47,149 bases of DNA from Escherichia phage JeanPiccard, in the sequence record MZ501080; one strand, written 5' to 3'. Both the position numbers and the translations under genes were made by a program. Shown here one piece after another: positions 20,896 through 46,155 of the stretch. The stretch's first letter is position 1; every line of letters starts with the position of its first letter. Below the pieces are notes generated by a model, which saw only the letters and a program-made list of their open reading frames with translations, did not search any database and was not told where the DNA came from.

Positions 20896-20960
20896 TTTTA
20901 AGTCCTTATTAAGTTTTCTCGTTTCGATGTGGTAATGATAACTCATCCCTGCGGATTGTC

Positions 20961-20978
20961 TTTAGCAATTCGTGCTAT
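20961..20978 (-). promoter_or_regulatory. dyad motif (minus orientation, copy d) overlapping methyltransferase stop codon
   Basis: TTTAGCAATTCGTGCTAT is the reverse complement of ATAGCACGAATTGCTAAA. Confidence 0.4.
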
Positions 20979-21651
20979 TTGCAATGAAAACCGCCCTTGC
21001 GAATCCTCTCGGTGTAAGACTGCGGACTACCTTCGTTTTCTTACTCTTACCGCCTAGCTTCTTGTATTGGTCTGAGAATCCGTCATTAACAGGCACGGGA
21101 ATAGCATCAGGCCATTTAAACCCATTGCCAGACCAAATACATGTCTTCTTAGGATATGCGTCGCGAGGCTTTATTAGGTCGCTAAAAAACGGGTGTAAAT
21201 CATCTTCCGGCAAATAGCCTCCGTATTCGTAAGGGTGGAAAGTGTTATCAGGCTTTCGCCAAAGTGATGAAAGTACGCTTATCGGGTTCTCAATCATGTA
21301 TGGCACTTGGTACTTATTAGCCAGGTTAAAGGCAACTTTACACGCTTCAGCAGCTTCAATTTGGAAATTGGGGTTAGCAAGGCGCTTGCGCTCAAAGTGT
21401 CTTGACCCGCTCACCGCTAAATCCGTACAGGGCGGGAATGCCAAAATGAAATCAGGCTTCACATTAAAATCGAAGTCAGCATCTATCCATGCGTTAACAT
21501 AGGTGATGTTGTGATGCTCAACCTTTGCATTTAAGTCACCGTAGCTCCCATGGTCAGAATCATCAAAGTTGAAACAGTAGCAAGTGTGACCAGCTTCAGC
21601 CCAATCTTTCACCGCAAGACCAGAGCCATCAAATAAAGACCAGATAACCAT
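20962..21651 (-). CDS. DNA C5-cytosine methyltransferase (short Dcm-like)
   Basis: motif I-like LFDGSG, PC motif FPPCTDLAVSG, ENV-like MIENPIS. Confidence 0.65.
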   Translation of the reverse strand: MVIWSLFDGSGLAVKDWAEAGHTCYCFNFDDSDHGSYGDLNAKVEHHNITYVNAWIDADFDFNVKPDFILAFPPCTDLAVSGSRHFERKRLANPNFQIEAAEACKVAFNLANKYQVPYMIENPISVLSSLWRKPDNTFHPYEYGGYLPEDDLHPFFSDLIKPRDAYPKKTCIWSGNGFKWPDAIPVPVNDGFSDQYKKLGGKSKKTKVVRSLTPRGFARAVFIANSTNC

Positions 21652-22034
21652 TTTACAATCCTCTCTCGTTGTTTGTGCGACTAACTATACCAGGTTTTGC
21701 GTCTGAGTTTTAGCTATTCGTGCTATTGCATACACGTAACAGATGTAACTTGATGTATACAATCTAATCCGCGGAAAATGATATACGCCAAGTTACGCAT
21801 GGTTACGCTATATTTACATTAAAATATCTATATATATCAACCATTTACTCTTATTATTATTATTATATATATTACTGTGTATATCATGTAACTACCTCTA
21901 TAGAGTGTTCCGGTTGCAATTTTAATATCATGTGGATTTATACAGTGTTGCACGGTGCTATACCAATGCACCCTCAGCAATAAATGATATACACGATATA
22001 CACACTAGTTACATTGAGCTATAGCTGATCTGAG
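21652..22034. promoter_or_regulatory. AT-rich divergent control region 1 (iteron-like repeats; candidate early promoters or origin)
   Basis: no ORFs; (ATT)n tract, GATATACAC tandem repeat, GTAAC/GTTAC and GTATAC repeats, TACACGTAAC; about 75 bp homologous to 40887..40960. Confidence 0.45.
21708..21726 (-). promoter_or_regulatory. dyad motif (minus orientation, copy e) upstream of methyltransferase gene
   Basis: TTTAGCTATTCGTGCTAT; followed on minus strand by TATAGT and leader before ATG 21651. Confidence 0.4.
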
Positions 22035-22379
22035 GTGCCAGAAAACGTAACTAGTGGCAATGCATACATGGAATTACAAGAATTCACACGTAAACTTAAT
22101 AAATTGATAGGCACAAACGATTGGATTCCAGCAAGCCACGCGGATATAGTTAACCCATCGAAAGCAAGCAACCAAATAGATACGAAAATGGGAAAGAAAA
22201 TAGATAGATACTCAGCTCACACCGTAATACTACCCAGCTATGCTCCGGTTTTTATTGGTGTAACTTACGAAGTGGCTCTTAGATTATGCGAGTCATCATA
22301 TGGTAAAGACTGGAAAAACAAATCAATTAGAATAGAGAAGACAACTAGAGAACATATCAAAATCATCGCGGGGGTATAA
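22035..22379 (+). CDS. hypothetical protein (start uncertain)
   Basis: 114-aa ORF with GTG start and no clear RBS; in-frame ATG at 22068. Confidence 0.35.
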   Translation: MPENVTSGNAYMELQEFTRKLNKLIGTNDWIPASHADIVNPSKASNQIDTKMGKKIDRYSAHTVILPSYAPVFIGVTYEVALRLCESSYGKDWKNKSIRIEKTTREHIKIIAGV

Positions 22380-22380
22380 A

Positions 22381-22575
22381 ATGACTTACTACATTATCAA
22401 AGAGAAAAACAACGCGTTGTTCGGAGACTGCTACTTTGGCGGCCCAGCTGGATACACCACAGATAAGAACGAGGCCGACAGATTCGAGACTAAAGAAGAG
22501 GCTAGAGATGTACTGACCGGGTACTTCACTGAAGAAGATTTGAAGTCTGTTAAAGTTGTTAAAGTGAAGGAATAG
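22381..22575 (+). CDS. hypothetical protein
   Basis: 64 aa ORF tightly packed before nuclease gene. Confidence 0.45.
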   Translation: MTYYIIKEKNNALFGDCYFGGPAGYTTDKNEADRFETKEEARDVLTGYFTEEDLKSVKVVKVKE

Positions 22576-23545: not shown

Positions 23546-24010
23546 ATGAACAAAGATTGCTGGCAGACTCCTTTAGAGTTATTTAAACCAATAGATGAAA
23601 AATACAACTTCGAGGTTGACGTATGTGCCAGTCCAGAGAACGCGCTTTGTGAATACTTCTGGACCGTAGATGATGACTGCTTGCAACAGGATTGGGGTGA
23701 TGATGGCGGTTTCGTTTGGTGTAATCCACCATATAGCAATCCATTACCATTTGTTGAAAAGTGCCAGCAATACGGATATGCAGTCATGCTATTGAATCAG
23801 GATACGTCAACAAAATGGGCTAAGATAGTCTTTGAAAAAGCATCAAAGGTTATACTTTTATCAGACAGGGTTAGATTTATAAATCCAGTAACACTTGAGG
23901 TTGGCAAGTCAAACCCAAAATGCCAGATGATTGTTGTTTTCGACAAGAGCAGTAATACTGGTGTTGATATACGCTGGTGCTCAATAAAAGAAATTCATAA
24001 GCACATATAA
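23546..24010 (+). CDS. dam: phage-type DNA N6-adenine methyltransferase (Dam-like)
   Basis: WQTP N-terminus and catalytic NPPY motif (WCNPPYS); about 154 aa, typical of the small phage Dam family. Confidence 0.8.
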   Translation: MNKDCWQTPLELFKPIDEKYNFEVDVCASPENALCEYFWTVDDDCLQQDWGDDGGFVWCNPPYSNPLPFVEKCQQYGYAVMLLNQDTSTKWAKIVFEKASKVILLSDRVRFINPVTLEVGKSNPKCQMIVVFDKSSNTGVDIRWCSIKEIHKHI

Positions 24011-24011
24011 A

Positions 24012-24029
24012 TAGCACTTTTTGTTAAAA
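24012..24029 (+). promoter_or_regulatory. dyad motif TAGCACttttTGTTAAAA (family copy f)
   Basis: directly after dam stop; followed by TATAGTTAAAG. Confidence 0.4.
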
Positions 24030-24086
24030 CGAAATTAATGTTTTTCGTTATAGTTAAAGAACACAAGAAAACAATGGGGGTTAGTC

Positions 24087-29142: not shown

Positions 29143-29616
29143 TTACTCTTTAGCTTTTCGTGCTGCTTCGTTGGCGGCCTTGATCTTGCGCCATGATCGA
29201 CACTCTGGCTTGGTGGCTAATTCAGCCTCAGTAACAACGCGCAGCATGTGACGTTTTTTGCATCGTAGTGTAAGCGGTTTTCCGTTACCGTCGAATTGCA
29301 GGTCCGGTCGACAGAATGTAGCGCGAAAACCTTCCCCAGTTCGTTTGTAGTAGTTATGCGACAGTTGAGCGCCACGTGCAGAAATCATACCACGCTTAAA
29401 CCATTCTTCCACGGCCTGAGGAGTTACCTTTAGCTGCTTTGCGATATTCGCCTTTGTGCCGAAGAAATCAAGTAGCATCTCAAGCCGCGCACGTAGCCCT
29501 GCCCTTACTTCATCTTTTAAAACGTAGTAGCCTGAAGGTCGTTTGCGCTTCTTTTTGTCTTCAGTGCGGACGGTTCCGTTATTCCCGTTAATGGTTCGCT
29601 TGTCTACTGCATTCAT
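29143..29616 (-). CDS. HTH DNA-binding protein (putative transcriptional regulator)
   Basis: helix-turn-helix-like segment ANIAKQLKVTPQAVEEWFKRG; basic termini. Confidence 0.55.
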   Translation of the reverse strand: MNAVDKRTINGNNGTVRTEDKKKRKRPSGYYVLKDEVRAGLRARLEMLLDFFGTKANIAKQLKVTPQAVEEWFKRGMISARGAQLSHNYYKRTGEGFRATFCRPDLQFDGNGKPLTLRCKKRHMLRVVTEAELATKPECRSWRKIKAANEAARKAKE

Positions 29617-29629
29617 TTCATCACCTCAA

Positions 29630-29648
29630 TAGCATTTTTTGTTAAAAG
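29630..29648 (+). promoter_or_regulatory. dyad motif TAGCATttttTGTTAAAAG (family copy h) in divergent intergenic region
   Basis: one mismatch from family consensus; upstream of helicase gene. Confidence 0.35.
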
Positions 29649-29717
29649 TCATTCTGGTTTAATGGTATTATTGTAATCAATTAAACGCTACAAGACAATT
29701 TTTATAGGAATTTAGAT

Positions 29718-31713: not shown

Positions 31714-32133
31714 ATGAAAATTACAGATAAGGTTGATTACATTGAGTTTTACCCAGGCCCTGTTAATTCATGCCCTAAAGAGGATGACGAACAAATCTTT
31801 TGCTCTGATTGGGTTAAGTATAACTATCCAGACATGGTGTTTTTCCACTGCGTGAATGAGGGTAAGAAAACAATTGGACAAGCAAGAAAAGACCAGGCTA
31901 AGGGTTTATTGAAGGGCGTATCTGACTGCATGTTTCTGATACCTGAATCTATCCGAGGCAAATACCCTTTCGGAGCCATAGAGCTAAAGAGGGCAGGAAA
32001 AACACAGGCAAGCCCAGTCAGTGACGAACAGAAGTCCTTCCTGAAAAGCGTAAGAGAATCAGGCGGCTTCGCGGCTGTAGCCTATGGTCGCGAGGGTTTT
32101 CTGGCAGCATTCAAAGAAATGATTTCAAAATAG
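31714..32133 (+). CDS. VRR-NUC domain nuclease
   Basis: 139 aa; segment GAIELKRAGKTQASPVSDEQKSFLKSV typical of VRR-NUC proteins; coupled to helicase. Confidence 0.6.
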   Translation: MKITDKVDYIEFYPGPVNSCPKEDDEQIFCSDWVKYNYPDMVFFHCVNEGKKTIGQARKDQAKGLLKGVSDCMFLIPESIRGKYPFGAIELKRAGKTQASPVSDEQKSFLKSVRESGGFAAVAYGREGFLAAFKEMISK

Positions 32134-32148
32134 CACGAATTGCTAAAG
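32131..32148 (+). promoter_or_regulatory. dyad motif TAGCACGAATTGCTAAAG (family copy i); TAG is the VRR-NUC stop
   Basis: exact 17-mer TAGCACGAATTGCTAAA shared with copies j, p, q. Confidence 0.45.
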
Positions 32149-32211
32149 GTATTTCGCAGGGATGCGATATAGTTACCCCATCGAAACGAAACACTAAAAG
32201 AGAGAAACAAA

Positions 32212-34067: not shown

Positions 34068-35198
34068 ATGGCAACCGCAAAAATCACCAACGAACAATTG
34101 CGCGAAGAGTTAGCAAATGGCATGACCAACAAGGCAATCGCAGAGAAGTACGGAATGAACATTCGCAACGTTGAATTGCGTCGCAGTAAATTAGCTAAAC
34201 AAGGCGAAGGGCATGGTCGCGATGTAAGCAACTTAATCCCTCAGGGCTATGCAGTTAAAGGCGTCTCCAGCTTAATTGGTGCTGATGGCGAGATTAAGCA
34301 ACAGTGGGTTAAATCAGATATCGACAAGGAGAAGCAAGAAGAGATGATGCTTCAGGCAATTCAGGCCCTAACTGATGAGTTGCCGCGTGAGAAAGCTAAA
34401 GCTTTAAGGGTTGGTTTATGGGAAGATACTTTAAGCCTTTACCCCGTGTTCGACCTCCACATTGGAGCAATGGCTCATCATGCTGAGTGTGGTGAGAACT
34501 ATAGTACTGAAATCGCTGAGAGAGTTCTTAATGATTACTTTGATTACGCGGTTGCAAAGGCCCCCAACTCCAAGAAAGCTGTATTGCTGATTGGGGGTGA
34601 CTTCCTTCACTCTGACGGAATGGAAGCGGTAACACCAACCAGTCGTCATGTTCTTGATCAAGATAGCCGTTATCACAAACTTGTTTACGTAGCAGTGCGA
34701 GCGACACGTCGAGCAATTAGCCGTATGCTTGATAAGCACGCCGAGGTTGAGGTTCAGATTATTCCAGGTAACCACGATCTCTCAGGTATGATTTGGCTTC
34801 GTGCTGCAATGGCAGCTTTCTATATGGATGAGCCTCGAGTTAATGTTGATGCGTCCCCCGCTGCGCTTCACGTAACGCAATTTGGGAAGACGCTGCTTGG
34901 TTACTGCCATGGGCACGAACTCAAAAAGCCTGATACCCGACTATCAGCACTGGCTCGTGACCATCGCAAAGCATTTGGTGAATCAGAGTATGTTTACACC
35001 CATTCAGGCCACTATCACCATCAAACTATTACGGAAGGAAATCTGGGTATTGATGAATCACACGGCCAGCTTGGAGCGAAAGATGCGTACAGTGCTAACG
35101 GAGGTTATCGCTCTTACCGACAGGCTTCGGTGATAATTTATAGTCCTGAGTTTGGTGAGATTGGACGATTTACTTGCCGCCCGGAAATGTTTAGTTAA
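34068..35198 (+). CDS. calcineurin-like metallophosphoesterase with N-terminal HTH-like domain
   Basis: phosphoesterase motifs GDFLHSD and GNHD plus His-rich C-terminal HSGHYHH; N-terminal GMTNKAIAEKYGMNIRNV resembles an HTH. Confidence 0.65.
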   Translation: MATAKITNEQLREELANGMTNKAIAEKYGMNIRNVELRRSKLAKQGEGHGRDVSNLIPQGYAVKGVSSLIGADGEIKQQWVKSDIDKEKQEEMMLQAIQALTDELPREKAKALRVGLWEDTLSLYPVFDLHIGAMAHHAECGENYSTEIAERVLNDYFDYAVAKAPNSKKAVLLIGGDFLHSDGMEAVTPTSRHVLDQDSRYHKLVYVAVRATRRAISRMLDKHAEVEVQIIPGNHDLSGMIWLRAAMAAFYMDEPRVNVDASPAALHVTQFGKTLLGYCHGHELKKPDTRLSALARDHRKAFGESEYVYTHSGHYHHQTITEGNLGIDESHGQLGAKDAYSANGGYRSYRQASVIIYSPEFGEIGRFTCRPEMFS

Positions 35199-35216
35199 TA
35201 GCACTTTTTGCCTAAC
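35199..35216 (+). promoter_or_regulatory. degenerate dyad motif TAGCACttttTGCCTAAC (family copy l)
   Basis: directly after stop of phosphoesterase gene; followed by ATAATTACCACATCGAAACGAA leader. Confidence 0.3.
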
Positions 35217-35282
35217 GCATGCCGTAGAAATGCGGCATAATTACCACATCGAAACGAAATGAACTAAACGAGGAAACACAAA

Positions 35283-37009: not shown

Positions 37010-38593
37010 TCACCCCAGCAATCTCGGATTAATATAAACTTTATCACCAATCAGGCACGTATAGTTTTTCTCATCAAGCATTGGCAGTAAGTGATCTTTA
37101 ATCTTCGTCATCACCCCAGCCTGAGCCTCGAACGGCTTAACCTTGCGCGCTGCCTCATACAATGAACGAACACCAACAACTCCCTTACCGTTTTTGCCTT
37201 GCTTGATCAGGATATCAATAAGCTTATTCATCTCGGCATTGTCTCCAGCGTGACCCGCAGCGTTGGCAGATGATAGATACGTCTTGCTCAGCTCCTGGAA
37301 CATAATTACTGCCTCTTGCATGGTGTCTAGCTCAATCTCTCTTGACTTCTGTGGACTTCCACCGTTAGGGTTGAACCAGTTACGCACAGTGTGAAGAACC
37401 GCTGCAATCCTGATGGCCTGTTTATCGAACTTCCCCAACGCGCCGCGCAACATTGTGTGGGAATACTTACCGCCGTCAGCAAGGTGAGGTTCCATTTCCT
37501 GACGAGCGCGGTTTAGGTATTTCATTGCTGAATTACTCACTGTCAACTTTACTTCTTGCTCGTTCATTATTTCGTGAACCAATCGGAAGTAGTCAGCCTT
37601 CAACCCGCCATCAATTGGTTCATAAGTCGATTCGCCATTTTCATCAACGAATACACGCTCACCCAGGAATGACTTTTCACGAACCAAAAGGAAACGTTCA
37701 GATACACCGATACCGCGCGCACCAGCATTCATGATTGCGTTAATTGTTTCGTCTTGCGCAATTACAGAGATGCAGCCCATAGCAACGAAGCTCATGTTGT
37801 TCTCTGCGTTCGCACGGGCGATAGATACGTTACCAGCATCCCATGCTTTAAGCACAAGCTCGCTGTTCGTTTTCTTTGAGCCATCGCCATACGTCATGCC
37901 AAGAAGTGAATTCACGCTCGTTGCTTCATCCGAGATTACTGCGAAGTTTCCCTGGCGGTTGTTTATTCGGGCCAAGCCTTCAGGCGTAGTGTCTGATACG
38001 GGGAAAACGATATCGCAAAGTTTCTCGAGCTTCTCCTCTAAATCTTCTTTTTCCTCAAATAGTGAAGCCATCTCTGACGGAGATTTTTCCTGCTTCATCT
38101 CTTTGGATAATGCAGATAGTTTGGCCATGATCTTTTTACGCTCACGCTTTCGCACTTCATTCAGTCGCTCAGTCTCGGCAATCATTGGAGCAATTGAAAG
38201 TGAGTTAATAGCTGATTTACCAGTAGATGGTGGCTGGCTTGTTACGACGTAAAGCGACGTGGGCTGCTGAGTTCCGTGATACTCTACAGTGAATCGACCA
38301 AGCATAGCAGCGGAAATACACCCCAGGAAGTGCATGTAAGCTGAAGATTCAGGGAACTGAACCGAACGAGCAATGTTGGCTGACAGTTTACCAACAACAT
38401 CAATATCATTTCCTAGTGAGATTACAGGATACTTGTCATTGGCAGCGTCAATCTCTACTGGCGCCTTCCAGAATGATTGGGACTGTCGATAGCCATTAGC
38501 ATTGATGGCGACACGCAAAGGCGGGAGGTTGTCTGCGGCAGCGATTGCCATAACCTGTTCAACAGATAGTTTATCTTCGTTGAAATCAAACAT
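37010..38593 (-). CDS. P-loop NTPase (possible SF3-like helicase/ATPase)
   Basis: Walker A TSQPPSTGKS, Walker B FAVISDE; N- and C-terminal regions paralogous to 41779..42306. Confidence 0.65.
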   Translation of the reverse strand: MFDFNEDKLSVEQVMAIAAADNLPPLRVAINANGYRQSQSFWKAPVEIDAANDKYPVISLGNDIDVVGKLSANIARSVQFPESSAYMHFLGCISAAMLGRFTVEYHGTQQPTSLYVVTSQPPSTGKSAINSLSIAPMIAETERLNEVRKRERKKIMAKLSALSKEMKQEKSPSEMASLFEEKEDLEEKLEKLCDIVFPVSDTTPEGLARINNRQGNFAVISDEATSVNSLLGMTYGDGSKKTNSELVLKAWDAGNVSIARANAENNMSFVAMGCISVIAQDETINAIMNAGARGIGVSERFLLVREKSFLGERVFVDENGESTYEPIDGGLKADYFRLVHEIMNEQEVKLTVSNSAMKYLNRARQEMEPHLADGGKYSHTMLRGALGKFDKQAIRIAAVLHTVRNWFNPNGGSPQKSREIELDTMQEAVIMFQELSKTYLSSANAAGHAGDNAEMNKLIDILIKQGKNGKGVVGVRSLYEAARKVKPFEAQAGVMTKIKDHLLPMLDEKNYTCLIGDKVYINPRLLG

Positions 38594-38667
38594 TACTTCT
38601 CTCCGTATTGTTTTTGAGAGGCCATTATATCAACGACCTCTTATAAAGCATTATCAATTTGTGCTAT

Positions 38668-39416: not shown

Positions 39417-39435
39417 AAAAGCCCCTAAGGGCTTT
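39417..39435 (-). terminator. terminator hairpin (minus-strand operon)
   Basis: hairpin AAAGCCCttaGGGGCTTT with flanking T/A runs. Confidence 0.45.
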
Positions 39436-39450
39436 AGCAATTCGTGCTAT
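39433..39450 (-). promoter_or_regulatory. dyad motif (minus orientation, copy n)
   Basis: TTTAGCAATTCGTGCTAT is the reverse complement of ATAGCACGAATTGCTAAA. Confidence 0.4.
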
Positions 39451-39594
39451 TTTGTGCCTTTTCTATCGCCTTGAGCATAATTTCATGACTCTCAAGCAAG
39501 TCTTCTCGGAACCAGTCTCCGCAAGGCCAACCCTTTCCGCTGTAGGCACTTATGACCTCAAGATCAAAATAATTTATCTCAGATGGTAATAGCA

Positions 39595-40523: not shown

Positions 40524-41230
40524 TTATTTCTCCTTTCCTCTCGTTTCTAGGACTGAATCATAGCAACCAACCACTGATAGGTCATTAGCAAAAAGTGCTA
40601 TTCGTTAGATTTATGGATTGTTGCAGATATTGAAATTATTATCATGATTATTGCACATATAGCAATATTGCTTCAGATGCAATGATGTTTTTGATTGTTG
40701 CGGATTGAGCAATGAAGTGGTGGGGGAGTGAATGAAAGATGGATGGACTAACATACAAGTTGATTTTGACTCCCGATAACCTATCCTGTGGTATACACGT
40801 AACCGCCGTATACTCAGTGTCGTCACAAAAGTTAGTGGACACTAACCTACGTTTTTTACGCCAATATACACTCGATATACAATATAATATCTATATATAT
40901 CAACCTTTTACTTTATTATTATTATTATTATTATATATATGTATACCGTGTATACCGGTCATGGATGGAATAGTTGATATGTTCCGCGCAGATATTCTGA
41001 CACTTGTCAGAAAGGGATGACATTGTAGGAATAAAAAGGCACATATATAGGAAATATCCTCAAAAATCTGTACACAGTGGATACGGCAGGTTTACAACCA
41101 GTGCCGGAGCGGGCTTGAGAGGCAAAATGCGTATCCATGATAAAATATACTAAAATATACATTGACCGACACGTAAATAGGTGGCAATATAGCAATCACT
41201 GAAACGAAGTAAACCAAACGAGGTATTAAC
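40524..41230. promoter_or_regulatory. AT-rich divergent control region 2 (homologous to region 1)
   Basis: no credible ORFs; shares ATATCTATATATATCAACC(A/T)TTTACT(C/T)TTATTATTATT core, TACACGTAAC and GTATAC repeats with 21652..22034. Confidence 0.45.
40585..40601 (-). promoter_or_regulatory. dyad motif (minus orientation, copy o)
   Basis: TTAGCAAAAAGTGCTAT is the reverse complement of ATAGCACTTTTTGCTAA. Confidence 0.35.
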
Positions 41231-41779
41231 ATGCAGAAAGTAACACTAGGTGAAGTTATCCGCGAGATGGTTCGTAACGCGATGGCGTCTGATGGTGGTG
41301 AATTCAAAGTTCCGGTTAGCCAGATATTCAAGCTGGTTCGCGGGAAAGAATACCCTGAGATGCGGTATGATGAGGATACCAGTGAGATCCTAAACCTTGC
41401 AGATAGGGCGATGCCGGAACTAAAGAACTCATACATTTATAATACGGTTTCGAGAATGACCGAGCTTCGAGATGCAAACAAGCGAGCGCGCTATAAGTTC
41501 ATCTGGATTGATGAGGATGGCGAGCAGGTAAGCCCTGGTAGCTTCGATGGTGATGGCGCCGATAAATACCTGGTAATATACATTGAGGACGGCGCGCACT
41601 GGACTGGAAGTCGCGAGAAGAAAAAGCAGGAATCGGAGAGGGAGGCAGCAACCATTGAAAGGTTTAAATCTCGATTGCTCAAGCTGTCACCTAGCGTCGC
41701 TGGGCTGGAAGGTGATGAACTTAAGGGTGCTGTTGCAATGATTAATGCTTATCAGGAAATGATTAAGGAAACCAAATAA
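41231..41779 (+). CDS. hypothetical protein
   Basis: 182 aa; ACGAGG RBS; first gene of plus-strand operon leaving control region 2. Confidence 0.5.
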   Translation: MQKVTLGEVIREMVRNAMASDGGEFKVPVSQIFKLVRGKEYPEMRYDEDTSEILNLADRAMPELKNSYIYNTVSRMTELRDANKRARYKFIWIDEDGEQVSPGSFDGDGADKYLVIYIEDGAHWTGSREKKKQESEREAATIERFKSRLLKLSPSVAGLEGDELKGAVAMINAYQEMIKETK

Positions 41780-42306
41780 TGTTTGATTTCAACGAAGAAA
41801 AGCTGACAGATGAGCAGGTCATGAGTATTGCGAAGCAGGATGGGATTCCCCCGCTACGGGTTGCAATCAATGCAAACGGGTATCGTCATGTTCAACACCT
41901 CTGGAGTCATCCTGATGCGTCATCAATCCACAAGGGTGAGGCTGTTGAGGTTCTGCTGACAGCGATAAGGACTGAATCTATAGCTCGCAGGGGAGTTGTT
42001 GGCTTACAGAAGTCTTATGACCTAATTAGGAAGCTAAAGAGGTTTAAAGGTGACAATGACGGGCTAATGGAGAGGATTAAGGACGAAATGATTCCAGAGC
42101 TAGAGAAAGCGAATCTCGTTTGCCTCATTGGAGATAAGATTTATGTCCACCCGGCTATCATTGAGGAGTCCTGGCAACCCAACTTCAAAACTTACGAAGG
42201 TGATCACACTAGTAGACTACCATACCACTTGCGGTACAGTGAGGCGGAGGTGGAAGAGGCTATTGAGTTCTACCGGAAGACTAAATCACTCCTGAATGGC
42301 GAATAG
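41779..42306 (+). CDS. domain-deleted paralog of the P-loop ATPase (N- and C-terminal modules only)
   Basis: MFDFNEEKLTDEQVMSIA..PPLRVAINANGYR and CLIGDKIYVHP match the ends of 37010..38593; no Walker motifs. Confidence 0.55.
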   Translation: MFDFNEEKLTDEQVMSIAKQDGIPPLRVAINANGYRHVQHLWSHPDASSIHKGEAVEVLLTAIRTESIARRGVVGLQKSYDLIRKLKRFKGDNDGLMERIKDEMIPELEKANLVCLIGDKIYVHPAIIEESWQPNFKTYEGDHTSRLPYHLRYSEAEVEEAIEFYRKTKSLLNGE

Positions 42307-42321
42307 CACGAATTGCTAAAC
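42304..42321 (+). promoter_or_regulatory. dyad motif TAGCACGAATTGCTAAAC (family copy p); TAG is the stop codon
   Basis: exact consensus copy. Confidence 0.45.
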
Positions 42322-42376
42322 AATGGATCGGGTAGTCAGCTATGATTACCCTATCAACAACGAAGAGGAAATGAAG

Positions 42377-43028: not shown

Positions 43029-43646
43029 ATGGCTAAAATAATCATTCTTAATGGACCTGCTTCTATTGGTAAGGACACTATCGGTAACGCGCTTGTGAAA
43101 GATTACAATTGCATCCCGACAAGCTTTAAGCTTCCTATTTTTGAGATCGCAGCTTCAGTCCTTGGCACTCGGGCGTTCAGTAAGTTCATCACGGCTTATA
43201 ATGACCGAGATCAGAAAGAGATGCCTCATGATTTTCTCGGTGGGAAAACGTGTCGAGAGTTCATGATCTGGATTAGCGAGTCGGTGGTCAAGCCGCTATT
43301 TGGCAATCAGCACTTCGGTAAGCTGACGAGCGAGCGTATCCAGCTTTGTGACGAGGGATTTAGCTTTGTTTGCACTGATGGCGGTTTTCCTGATGAGGTT
43401 ATACGCCTGGTGGAAGATGGTCACTATGTTACCGTTGTGCGCCTGTTCATGGATGGCAAGACCTTCGCGGGAGATAGCCGTGATTATATCCGCATCAAGG
43501 AATCGCACTTCCCTGATTATAGGCAATATAACGAGCATGATGTACATCTGGTGAATGGTGATATTGACGGCGGCGTCATGGCAGTGGTTCGCGCCTGCGG
43601 TATCCGTCCTGCAATCGACGAGTGGGCCGACGATATTCCCTGGTAA
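43029..43646 (+). CDS. P-loop kinase (deoxynucleoside monophosphate kinase-like)
   Basis: Walker A GPASIGKDT at N-terminus (the GKDT form recalled from phage dNMP kinases). Confidence 0.55.
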   Translation: MAKIIILNGPASIGKDTIGNALVKDYNCIPTSFKLPIFEIAASVLGTRAFSKFITAYNDRDQKEMPHDFLGGKTCREFMIWISESVVKPLFGNQHFGKLTSERIQLCDEGFSFVCTDGGFPDEVIRLVEDGHYVTVVRLFMDGKTFAGDSRDYIRIKESHFPDYRQYNEHDVHLVNGDIDGGVMAVVRACGIRPAIDEWADDIPW

Positions 43647-43647
43647 A

Positions 43648-43665
43648 TAGCACGAATTGCTAAAC
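43648..43665 (+). promoter_or_regulatory. dyad motif TAGCACGAATTGCTAAAC (family copy q)
   Basis: exact consensus copy directly after kinase stop. Confidence 0.45.
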
Positions 43666-43719
43666 CAGCTCCGGCGGGTTCTGTTATAGTTAGTTCACAC
43701 CAAACGAGAGGAAAGATAA

Positions 43720-44140: not shown

Positions 44141-44283
44141 TTTACATCCACACTTACTACACTGGCAAGTTCAATAGCGTTAAGCACGTTCGGGTTTATG
44201 AGGATTTTAAAGAAGCATTCAAGCAGCAGGAGGTTCTTGGTGGAGTTGTCCAGGAATGTGAAATTCTAGAAGAATACAAATAG
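44137..44283 (+). CDS. hypothetical small protein (48 aa)
   Basis: ATGA overlap with upstream stop; stop TAG supplied by dyad motif. Confidence 0.35.
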   Translation: MIYIHTYYTGKFNSVKHVRVYEDFKEAFKQQEVLGGVVQECEILEEYK

Positions 44284-44299
44284 CACTAATTGTTAAAAC
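44281..44299 (+). promoter_or_regulatory. dyad motif TAGCACtaatTGTTAAAAC (family copy r)
   Basis: followed by hairpin TGGGGTAA..TTACCCCA enclosing TGATATAGT and CATCGAAACGAA leader. Confidence 0.4.
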
Positions 44300-44353
44300 A
44301 ACATTGGGGTAATTTGATATAGTTACCCCATCGAAACGAATGAGGACAAACAG

Positions 44354-46077: not shown

Positions 46078-46155
46078 GCTCTGCTAGCTCAACAGGACAG
46101 CAGCAACGACCTTCTAAGTCGTAGGTTACTGGTTCGAATCCAGTGCGGAGCGCCA
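46078..46155 (+). tRNA. tRNA-Arg(TCT): tRNA-Arg (anticodon UCU), CCA encoded
   Basis: manual cloverleaf: acceptor GCTCTGC/GCGGAGC (one G-U pair), anticodon stem ACGAC/GTCGT with loop CTTCTAA, T-arm ACTGG-TTCGAAT-CCAGT, discriminator G, then CCA. Confidence 0.7.

What the first reader, a model, noticed from the sequence alone, without database searches (positions are those of the whole stretch)
40524..41230. Second AT-rich control region homologous to region 1, about 19 kb away
About 700 bp without credible ORFs between a minus-strand operon of small genes and a plus-strand operon. It shares with 21652-22034 the core ATATCTATATATATCAACC(T)TTTACTTTATTATTATTATT...ATATAT followed by GTATACCGTGTATACC, plus TACACGTAAC (40794-40803) and several GTATAC palindromes. 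Two copies of the same control architecture suggest a common regulator governing two divergent early units, or duplicated origin-like elements.
Basis: seen in the sequence. Interest (0 to 1): 0.7.

Follow-up and report, generated by a model that had tools for sequence, protein, structure and literature searches.

The report
Paired origin-like modules in T1-like phage
This T1-like phage, like its relatives, carries two copies of a conserved non-coding module (short repeats facing inward around the most easily melted DNA in the genome) that looks like a replication origin, a site not located for this phage family in any paper I could access.

Summary
The window is a complete T1-like (Drexlerviridae) genome. 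Region 40524-41230 (R2) and region 21652-22187 (R1) share a colinear module. Its core is 82% identical over 95 columns (alignment score 94; shuffles 24±3).

The similarity is not just AT tracts. Both cores have the same layout: 3-4 direct WTACR(C) repeats at 10-11 bp phasing, an IHF-consensus site, (TTA)n(TA)n, then two inverted copies of the repeat. The two cores are the two least stable duplex segments of the genome (z about 5; next 3.2).

The pair sits at the same two syntenic places in every complete relative examined, including T1 and a Klebsiella Webervirus. In those two deep lineages the copies resemble each other more than their orthologues, and in the Webervirus the repeat word changes (TCTTACC).

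The phage's DUF3987 helicase models as an MCM-type AAA+ ATPase with a probable C-terminal winged-helix domain. Distant phages with this helicase have lineage-specific repeats around AT-rich DNA upstream of its operon.

Best reading (about 0.5): origin-like sites for a self-loading initiator-helicase, as in SaPI origins, duplicated as in SPP1 oriL/oriR. Main rival (about 0.3): a shared transcriptional control region. No function was tested.

The parts
40524..41230 (.). R2: the whole non-coding gap of the finding, between the leftward small-gene/helicase operon and the rightward DUF7174 operon
   Evidence: The ORFs inside it are broken in most relatives. Conservation profile.
40793..40813 (.). 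R2 distal repeat cluster: ATACAC (+) at 40793 and YGTAW (-) at 40798 and 40807. Contains TACACGTAAC (40794-40803).
   Evidence: Colinear with 21730-21762 in R1.
40856..40882 (+). R2 left iterons: three direct WTACR words (TTACGC, ATACAC, ATACAA) at 40856, 40866 and 40877, spaced 10 and 11 bp
   Evidence: Same register relative to the TTA run as in R1 and in relatives.
40898..40910 (+). IHF-consensus site TATCAACCTTTTA, preceded by a 94% A+T tract
   Evidence: only 10 consensus matches in the genome, and this one and 21835 have by far the most AT-rich upstream tracts. Present in 11 of 18 region copies across relatives.
40913..40940 (.). (TTA)7T(TA)3 tract: candidate DNA unwinding element. It lies inside the least stable 60-mer of the genome (40880-40939).
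   Evidence: z 5.5. The repeat number varies from 4 to 7 among relatives.
40940..40957 (-). R2 right iterons: two inverted copies (GTATACCGTGTATACC), 9 bp apart
40997..41010 (.). Palindrome CTGACACTTGTCAG inside a block conserved at 0.94-0.96 (40971-41030)
   Evidence: Function unknown.
41146..41190 (+). ATATAC x2 (41146, 41156), then the probable rightward promoter: TTGACC (41162-41167), 17 bp, CAATAT (41185-41190), with CACGTAA (41170-41176) in the spacer
   Evidence: Read. TTGAC(C/T)-17-CAATAT is also present in Sd1, SU57 and 2725-N35, read by eye. ACGTAA-TAG-TGGCAAT is shared with R1.
40557..40603 (-). Probable leftward promoter of R2: a copy of the family-wide 21-nt repeat (40583-40603), then TATGAT (40557-40562). 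It lies outside the shared core.
   Evidence: (family D7), and PMC11447400
40613..40771 (.). R2-only block: TTGC-N7-GCAA palindromes and the conserved GAATGAAAGATGGATGGACTAACATACAAGTTGATTTTGA. The first bases of the T1, SU57 and EC3a records map in or just right of it, so it is a candidate pac region.
   Evidence: PMC7718038.
21652..22187 (.). R1: the paralogous non-coding region. Its module 21722-22170 is conserved at 0.82-1.00 across 7 phages.
   Evidence: Found in 134 phage records: every one whose taxonomy I looked at is Drexlerviridae, and the organism names are almost all Escherichia or Shigella phages.
21730..21762 (.). R1 distal repeat cluster: ATACAC (+), YGTAW (-) at 21735, 21744 and 21754, and GTATAC at 21755. 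Contains TACACGTAAC (21731-21740).
21783..21819 (+). R1 left iterons: four direct WTACR words at 21783, 21793, 21803 and 21814, spaced 10, 10 and 11 bp
21835..21847 (+). IHF-consensus site TATCAACCATTTA
21851..21872 (.). (TTA)5T(TA)3 tract, inside the second least stable 60-mer of the genome (21809-21868)
   Evidence: z 5.15
21874..21893 (-). R1 right iterons: two inverted copies (TGTGTATATCATGTAAC) at 21878 and 21887. This stretch is essentially invariant in the 7 phages.
37010..38593 (-). DUF3987 helicase, the candidate initiator-helicase. It has an MCM-type AAA+ fold and a probable C-terminal winged-helix-like domain (about residues 451-521).
41779..42306 (+). 175-aa paralogue of the helicase that keeps only its N-terminal 45 residues and its C-terminal domain. 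It is the second gene of the operon to the right of R2 and is a candidate competitor or regulator at the repeats.
   Evidence: Inverted repeat I5.

Best explanation
R2 contains a copy of a roughly 170-nt core, inside a roughly 450-nt module, that is duplicated at R1. The core most likely works as a replication-origin-type nucleoprotein site.

Proposed mechanism:
- A phage DNA-binding protein binds the WTACR(C) repeats. These form a phased direct array on the left and an inverted pair on the right of the (TTA)n(TA)n tract. The best candidate binder is the probable winged-helix C-terminal domain of the MCM-like DUF3987 helicase.
- In this lineage IHF bends the DNA next to the tract.
- The tract, the most easily melted DNA in the genome, opens, and helicase rings load on either side. 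The P4-type zinc-ribbon primase then primes synthesis.
- The second copy, just upstream of recE-erf-ssb, is either a second origin or an auxiliary binding site, as in SPP1 oriR or P4 crr.

Shown here: the duplication, the repeat anatomy, the melting minimum, family-wide conservation, the copies changing together within lineages, and the helicase fold. Inferred: which protein binds, that melting and loading occur, and that replication starts here.
For: 1. The two cores are homologous and colinear. WTACR words are enriched: 19 observed against 4.6±2.1 in shuffled cores. Positions and orientations are fixed as direct repeats, AT tract, inverted repeats.

2. The cores are the two least stable 60-mers in the window (z 5.5 and 5.2; next 3.2). 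The same holds in all six other complete genomes tested: EC3a, Sd1, T1, SU57, 2725-N35 and Webervirus VAC113.

3. R1 is under strong purifying selection. 21811-21929 scores 0.96-1.00 per 30 columns in 7 phages, above the neighbouring recE coding sequence at 0.79-0.95. The most divergent hits keep only the core.

4. R1/R2 paralogy is significant in 8 of 8 genomes and in the Webervirus (72 against shuffles 23.5±3.3). T1's and the Webervirus's copies are closer to each other than to orthologues. In the Webervirus the repeat word changes (TCTTACC/GGTAAGA, 7 of 11 genome copies in the two regions). One lineage-specific factor therefore probably reads both copies.

6. Two phages with only 37-38% identical DUF3987 helicases have, directly upstream of the helicase operon, about 600 nt with lineage-specific repeats around microsatellite or (TA)n DNA. 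One uses CTTACA. The other uses G5 and C5 runs, mostly G5 to the left and C5 to the right, with 16 of the locus's 19 runs in that region.

7. This is the published architecture of SaPI origins for self-loading helicases: penta- or hexanucleotide iterons, a central AT-rich region, at least two iterons on each side in opposite directions, and a winged-helix C-terminal domain that reads them (PMC9371898). Dual origins of the same design exist in SPP1 (PMC6316719).

8. The two papers I could read that looked for an origin in T1-like phages did not find one (PMC7718038 and PMC11447400).
Against: - No experimental datum links these sites to replication.
- The module is not next to the helicase gene, as SaPI origins are. 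R2 is about 2 kb upstream of it across several small genes, and R1 is about 15 kb away.
- The genome has no strict DnaA box, and GATC is not clustered in the two regions. This is neutral for a phage-initiator origin.
- Repeats plus AT-rich DNA plus an IHF site is also the make-up of regulated promoter regions and of lambda cosB.
- Other annotators have placed in-silico divergent promoters on the core, and a 9/12 rightward promoter match exists in both copies.
- The IHF site is missing from T1, the Webervirus and some other copies.
- The two copies could be kept alike by gene conversion rather than by a shared factor.
- The winged-helix domains of MCM proteins are not generally sequence-specific.
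Confidence: 0.5

Rival explanations
1. Shared transcriptional control region. The core holds a strong rightward (and perhaps a leftward) host-RNA-polymerase promoter. The WTACR and CACGTAA words are operators for one phage regulator, with IHF as architectural cofactor. Together they coordinate the recE-erf-ssb operon and the DUF7174 small-gene operon.
For: - Both modules have the same orientation relative to a rightward operon in the window, T1 and the Webervirus.
- TTTACT-16/18-TATTAT/TATATT matches (9/12) occur on the + strand in both cores, with AT-rich DNA upstream.
- ACGTAA(C/A)TAG(G)TGGCAAT is shared next to both gene-proximal rightward promoters.
- The genome has almost no consensus sigma-70 promoters in intergenic DNA (PMC11447400), so unusual promoters are expected.
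- Other groups annotated predicted promoters here.
- The phage encodes a Cro-like HTH protein at 29143-29616.
Against: - Promoter matches of 9/12 occur at only modestly above shuffle expectation in these AT-rich regions (7 against 3.7±2.1; 5 against 3.1±1.6). None reaches 10/12.
- The TTA run that would be the spacer varies from 4 to 7 units.
- The gene-proximal promoters lie 200-300 bp outside the core.
- Phased arrays of 3-4 direct repeats plus an inverted pair around the genome's melting minimum are more typical of origins than of operators.
- This reading is not exclusive of the origin model, since transcription-activated origins exist.
Confidence: 0.3
2. Packaging accessory. The phased repeats and the IHF site form a terminase small-subunit assembly site, like lambda cosB, that belongs to pac in R2. 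R1 is a second or vestigial copy.
For: - T1's record starts (the pac end, with a 2.8-kb terminal repeat) inside R2. SU57's PhageTerm-chosen end and EC3a's record start also fall in R2 (PMC7718038).
- From my own knowledge, lambda cosB combines repeated Nu1 sites with an IHF site.
Against: - Those ends map 100-250 bp left of the core, in or beside an R2-only block of TTGC-N7-GCAA palindromes. That block is the better pac candidate.
- From my own knowledge of the older T1 literature, T1 packages from a single pac site.
- R1 is the better conserved copy, which is odd for a vestige.
- The terS gene is about 6 kb away.
Confidence: 0.06
3. No dedicated function. The two copies are a relic duplication or a recombination joint between modules, kept alike by gene conversion. 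Alternatively, the region encodes a small RNA or peptide.
For: - Phage genomes are mosaic, and the DNA to the left of R1 differs between relatives.
- Rtp's R2 is closer to the R1 copies than to other R2 copies, which suggests conversion.
Against: - The pair is retained at the same two places from T1 to Webervirus, with the layout kept and the sequence changed.
- Conservation exceeds that of adjacent coding DNA.
- There is no Rfam match.
- Fold z-scores are only -0.7 to -2.5.
- The ORFs are broken in most relatives.
Confidence: 0.06

Closest known systems
SaPI / SCCmec origins for self-loading Rep or Cch helicases (PMC9371898)
   Same: Short 5-6-nt iterons, an AT-rich centre, and at least two iterons on each side in opposite directions. 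The element encodes an AAA+ (SF3 or MCM-type SF6) helicase with a C-terminal winged-helix domain. The iteron word differs between lineages.
Bacillus phage SPP1 oriL / oriR (PMC6316719)
   Same: A virulent pac-type siphophage with two origin sequences of the same design (direct repeats plus an AT-rich unwinding element) kilobases apart and bound by one phage protein. One lies in a long intergenic region. The second is thought to stall forks and trigger the switch to recombination-dependent concatemer synthesis, which uses an exonuclease, an annealing protein and SSB. Here R1 sits directly upstream of recE-erf-ssb.
   Different: SPP1 uses a separate origin-binding protein (gp38), a loader and a DnaB-type helicase. 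No homology to the SPP1 origins or proteins was sought or found here.
Satellite phage P4 ori / crr with the alpha primase-helicase (from my own knowledge, not checked in a paper here)
   Same: Two separate iteron clusters are bound by one multifunctional replication protein. The T1-like primase carries the same Zn-ribbon primase-helicase domain, and T1's record calls its primase similar to P4-family alpha proteins.
   Different: The P4 helicase is SF3 and fused to the primase. Its iteron word and spacing differ. crr is not a copy of the whole origin.
Iteron origins with an IHF site (lambda ori; pSC101 and R6K gamma origins; from my own knowledge)
   Same: Phased direct repeats beside an AT-rich unwinding element, with IHF bending as an architectural aid.
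   Different: Those initiators are not helicases and depend on host DnaB loading. DnaA boxes are usually present, and none is found here.

Membership tests
Self-loading-helicase origin (SaPI/SCCmec type) | 6-12 short (5-6 nt) iterons | tested here: met
   8-11 WTACR words per core (19 in the two cores against 4.6±2.1 in shuffles)
Self-loading-helicase origin (SaPI/SCCmec type) | Central AT-rich region with at least two iterons on each side pointing in opposite directions | tested here: met
   Three or four (+) words, then (TTA)n(TA)n, then two (-) words in both copies and in relatives. The tract is the genome's melting minimum.
Self-loading-helicase origin (SaPI/SCCmec type) | Element-encoded AAA+ helicase with a C-terminal winged-helix domain | tested here: inconclusive
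   [not shown]
Self-loading-helicase origin (SaPI/SCCmec type) | Origin lies immediately downstream of the rep gene | tested here: not met
   R2 is about 2 kb upstream of the helicase gene, and R1 is about 15 kb away. In distant relatives the repeat region is directly upstream of the helicase operon.
Self-loading-helicase origin (SaPI/SCCmec type) | Specific binding and melting by the helicase; replication starts there | not testable with these tools
   Needs EMSA or footprinting, KMnO4 probing and marker-frequency analysis
Dual origins of SPP1 type | Two sites of the same repeat-plus-unwinding-element design in one genome | tested here: met
Dual origins of SPP1 type | Both sites bound by one phage origin-binding protein | not testable with these tools
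   Only indirect support: the two copies change together within lineages
DnaA-dependent (oriC-like) origin | Cluster of DnaA boxes and GATC sites | tested here: not met
   No TTWTNCACA anywhere in the genome, and one GATC in the two regions
Sigma-70 promoter / operator control region | -35 and -10 hexamers at 16-18 bp, conserved, upstream of a gene | tested here: inconclusive
   Only 9/12 matches in the core, close to shuffle expectation, and none at 10/12 or better. The spacer repeat number varies. No transcript data were found.
IHF binding site | WATCAANNNNTTR with an AT-rich tract upstream | tested here: met
   21835 and 40898 are the two matches with the most AT-rich upstream tracts out of 10 in the genome. 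The site is absent from T1 and Webervirus cores. Binding is untested.
pac site | Position of the first packaging cut | tested here: not met
   The record ends of T1, SU57 and EC3a map left of the core, in or next to the R2-only block. These are deposited coordinates, not new data.
Known RNA family / structured RNA | Rfam match or a stable conserved fold | tested here: not met
   The only Rfam hit in the window is a tRNA at 46078-46152. Fold z-scores are -0.7 to -2.5.

The most novel reading that the evidence does not exclude
T1-like phages replicate from a pair of origins that change together. An MCM-like self-loading helicase recognises them through its winged-helix domain. R2, beside pac and the helicase operon, fires early. 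R1, directly upstream of recE-erf-ssb, acts like SPP1 oriR as a bound roadblock or second origin that switches replication to the recombination-dependent concatemer mode. The 175-aa 'mini-helicase' (N-terminal piece plus winged-helix domain, no ATPase), encoded beside R2, competes for the repeats and times initiation.
Probability: 0.2. Interest if true: 0.8.

Novelty: new member of a known kind. Interest (0 to 1): 0.62.

Why it matters
T1 is one of the original T phages, and T1-like phages are notorious laboratory and fermentation contaminants. Yet the family papers I could read say that no replication origin was found (PMC7718038, PMC11447400).

This analysis gives two precise, family-wide candidate sites, a candidate initiator (an MCM-type helicase, uncommon in bacterial viruses) and a candidate regulator. 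The question therefore becomes directly testable.

If confirmed, the sites would be useful for engineering T1-like phages and for phage-dependent plasmid amplification. They would also extend the SaPI-type 'self-loading helicase plus inverted iterons' origin design to virulent coliphages.

If the transcriptional reading is right instead, the modules would define the early control switch of the family.

Tried and rejected
- Coding potential: the four ORFs of 62-93 aa inside R2 are interrupted in most relatives, and one reads through the TTA run as poly-Leu.
- RNA gene: no Rfam family and no convincing fold. The best z (-2.5) comes from DNA-level inverted repeats.
- Host-type origin: no strict DnaA box and no GATC cluster.
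- Captured origin in plasmids: no match to R1 in 72,556 plasmids.
- Strong consensus promoters: only 12 matches of 10/12 or better in the genome, mostly inside genes and none in the cores.
- GC skew follows transcription direction only and is uninformative.
- Sequence search of the helicase and the primase against solved structures gave nothing usable. Fold comparison was needed.
- Literature: no paper in the library describes these regions, an origin, or transcript maps for T1-like phages. The T1 and Rtp genome papers are not held, so earlier mention there cannot be excluded.
- Klebsiella phage 13 turned out to lack the recE region, so VAC113 was used instead.
- L062's lineage has no relative in the phage collection.
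- An untested lead from memory: WTACR words at 10-bp phasing resemble tandem sites of winged-helix response regulators such as OmpR.

Full report
**What the window is.** The 47,149-bp window is a complete T1-like siphophage genome (Drexlerviridae) that starts at the small terminase gene. Its closest relatives are Shigella phage Sd1, Veterinaerplatzvirus isolates and Braunvirinae such as 2725-N35, SU57 and EC3a.

The finding's region, R2 (40524-41230), separates a leftward operon from a rightward operon. The leftward operon holds small genes and then a DUF3987 helicase at 37010-38593. The rightward operon starts with a DUF7174 protein. The comparison region, R1, separates a leftward three-gene unit from the rightward recE-erf-ssb operon. 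R1 really runs from 21652 to 22187. The 5' part of ORF 22035-22379 is conserved non-coding DNA with a TATAGTTA-type -10 at 22146, and the likely start codon is 22188.

**Check of the observation.**
- R2 has no credible gene. Its four mechanical ORFs are frameshifted or stopped in most of four relatives; only Sd1 keeps two of them.
- The strict local alignment of R1 with R2 covers 21804-21896 and 40867-40956: 78 of 95 columns, 82%, score 94. Dinucleotide shuffles give 24.2±2.9 (max 36). No other 536-nt window of the genome scores above 31 against R2.
- With softer scoring the two regions are colinear over about 480 nt (21679-22161 against 40746-41221; score 93; shuffles 37±6, max 57).
TATAC/GTATA has 21 of 82 copies in 2.4% of the genome, GTATAC 5 of 13 and CACGTAA 4 of 7.
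- One correction: GTATACCGTGTATACC is the R2 form, and R1 has TGTGTATATCATGTAAC at that place.

**Anatomy of the core.** Both cores read the same way from left to right:
1. A distal cluster: ATACACGTAAC followed by two or three inverted YGTAW words 9-10 bp apart.
2. About 40-60 bp further, three (R2) or four (R1) direct WTACR(C) words spaced 10-11 bp. The last three sit at -58, -48 and -37 from the TTA run in both copies and in relatives.
3. A match to the IHF consensus WATCAANNNNTTR, with a 94% A+T tract upstream. Only ten consensus matches exist in the genome, and these two have by far the most AT-rich upstream tracts.
4. (TTA)5-7 followed by (TA)3.
5. Two inverted copies of the word, 9 bp apart.

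WTACR words number 19 in the two cores, against 4.6±2.1 (max 14) after shuffling the cores. By nearest-neighbour energies the two cores are the two least stable 40-, 60- and 100-bp segments of the whole genome (60-mers z 5.5 and 5.2; the next is 3.2). The number of TTA units varies from 4 to 7 among relatives, so the distance across the tract is not fixed.

**What lies outside the core.** The promoters nearest the flanking genes are outside the shared core. On the left of both regions is a copy of the family-wide 21-nt repeat (21708-21728 and 40583-40603, minus strand), followed in R2 by TATGAT. On the right of R2 is TTGACC-17-CAATAT (41162-41190). TTGAC(C/T)-17-CAATAT is also present in Sd1, SU57 and 2725-N35.

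R2 also has an R2-only block (40613-40771) of TTGC-N7-GCAA palindromes and a conserved 40-mer. The first bases of the T1 record (its pac end), the SU57 record (a PhageTerm-chosen end) and the EC3a record all map in or just right of this block (PMC7718038). That block, not the shared core, is the better candidate for pac.

**Comparative evidence.**
- The R1 module occurs in 134 phage records. Every one whose taxonomy I looked at is Drexlerviridae, and the organism names are almost all Escherichia or Shigella phages. None occurs in plasmids.
- Across seven phages, R1 positions 21811-21929 are 96-100% conserved per 30 columns. That is higher than the adjacent recE coding sequence at 79-95%. The most divergent hits keep only 21730-21903, which is the core.
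- R1/R2 paralogy is significant in all eight genomes tested (scores 66-141; local-composition shuffles about 25, max 50 or less).
- In T1 the two copies are more alike (66) than either is to its orthologue in the window's group (27-58).
- In Klebsiella Webervirus VAC113 the two least stable 60-mers (z 5.5 and 5.1; next 3.3) are again the R2 counterpart and a site just upstream of recE. There the recE site lies between co-directional genes.
- The Webervirus repeat word is different: TCTTACC/GGTAAGA, with 7 of 11 genome copies in the two regions. The two copies align with each other (72; shuffles 23.5±3.3) far better than with the window's regions (24-46).
- In all seven complete genomes the two melting minima are R1 and R2.
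- Other lineages show the same design in the R2 counterpart with yet other words: TGTCCCA, TTTTGCGGTAGAT.

The layout and the two-copy state are therefore old and conserved, while the word changes lineage by lineage and in both copies together. That is what a shared, co-evolving DNA-binding factor would produce. Gene conversion could contribute.

The second gene to the right of R2 (41779-42306) encodes a 175-aa paralogue. It keeps only the first 45 residues (69% identity) and this C-terminal domain (36% identity). The primase carries the Zn-ribbon of primase-helicases.

Two phages whose DUF3987 helicases are only 37-38% identical have about 600 nt of non-coding DNA directly upstream of the operon (small gene, then helicase, then primase/SNF2 genes and a RecE-like DUF3799 gene). 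That DNA contains lineage-specific repeats around low-complexity or AT-rich DNA. One has CTTACA/TGTAAG around (AAC)12. The other has G5 runs mostly to the left and C5 runs mostly to the right of (TA)n, with 16 of the locus's 19 runs in that region.

**Interpretation.** This combination is the published design of SaPI origins, which are read by the winged-helix C-terminal domain of self-loading AAA+ helicases (PMC9371898). The features are short iterons, an AT-rich centre, at least two iterons on each side in opposite orientation, and a lineage-specific word. Two origins of one design in a pac-type virulent siphophage are known from SPP1. There the second origin is thought to stall forks and trigger recombination-dependent concatemer synthesis (PMC6316719). 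Here R1 sits directly in front of recE-erf-ssb.

I therefore rate 'origin-type loading site, present twice' as the best explanation (about 0.5). Shown: homology, layout, melting minima, conservation, the copies changing together, and the helicase fold. Inferred: who binds, melting, loading and initiation.

**Rivals.**
- The main rival (about 0.3) is a shared transcriptional control region. A 9/12 rightward promoter match lies in both cores. Other annotators predicted promoters there. The orientation relative to the rightward operons is conserved. The two readings are compatible, because many phage origins are activated by transcription.
- A packaging role for the core is unlikely, given where the deposited ends map and the existence of R1.
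- A functionless relic is unlikely, given the conservation.
- RNA and peptide readings have no support.

**Novelty and limits.** The accessible papers on T1-like phages say the origin was not found, and they do not describe these regions. The T1 and Rtp genome papers could not be read. As a kind, an iteron/AT-rich origin is known, so this is a new member of that kind. Its particular features are the pair that changes together, the IHF site in this lineage, and its distance from the helicase gene. Nothing here is experimental.

Noticed in passing
window 32128-32175, 43645-43692, 44278-44325, 24009-24056, 35196-35243, 42302-42325; minus strand 20960-20980, 21708-21728, 39432-39452, 40583-40603 and others: A genome-wide family (20 or more copies, always in the direction of transcription) of AATAGCAC-N4/5-TTGCTAAA, which is the palindrome TAGCA-N5-TGCTA. 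About 20 nt downstream comes TATAGTTA, often with a small hairpin of variable sequence in between. The palindrome centre would lie near -41/-42 of a start after that -10, the position of a class II activator site. The TLS paper lists this repeat as an unexplained feature of T1-like phages (PMC11447400).
   Followed up: partly
window 40613-40771: An R2-only block of TTGC-N7-GCAA palindromes (for example TATTGCACATATAGCAATA and ATTGCTTCAGATGCAAT) plus a conserved 40-mer. Similar palindromes occur in T1. The first bases of the T1, SU57 and EC3a records map in or just right of it, so it is a candidate pac or terminase site, or an operator.
   Followed up: partly
window 41779-42306 (+) and 37010-38593 (-): A 175-aa protein is a cut-down paralogue of the DUF3987 helicase. 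It keeps the N-terminal 45 residues (69% identity) and the C-terminal domain (36% identity) and has no ATPase. At the DNA level the two gene starts form an 82% inverted repeat (38549-38598 / 41774-41823).
   Followed up: partly
[not shown]
   Followed up: yes
window 22035-22379: The listed ORF is probably only 64 aa long (start 22188). Its 5' part is conserved non-coding promoter DNA. The stretch 22190-22377 is an insertion absent from six relatives, whose first gene corresponds to 22381-22575.
   Followed up: partly
window 40832-40847, 40997-41010, 21896-21905: Further short perfect palindromes lie inside conserved blocks of the two modules: GTTAGTGGACACTAAC and CTGACACTTGTCAG in R2, and CTCTATAGAG in R1. 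A shared TGTTCCG(G/C) word sits just right of each core. Binding partners are unknown.
   Followed up: no
window 29617-29717: The third divergent junction lies between the Cro-like regulator/primase unit and the SNF2-type helicase unit. It is only 100 bp long, but it contains the third least stable 60-mer of the genome (29659-29718, z 3.2) and a copy of the 21-nt repeat (29630-29650).
   Followed up: no
L020 9203-9759 and L021 9060-9680: Distant phages with 37-38% identical DUF3987 helicases have one operon (small gene, helicase, primase/SNF2 genes, RecE-like DUF3799 gene). It is preceded by about 600 nt with lineage-specific repeats. One has CTTACA with an (AAC)12 microsatellite. The other has G5 and C5 runs, mostly G5 left and C5 right, around (TA)n.
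   Followed up: partly
window 46078-46152: The only Rfam match in the window is a tRNA gene in the small-gene region. Relatives carry tRNA-Arg at the same place.
   Followed up: no
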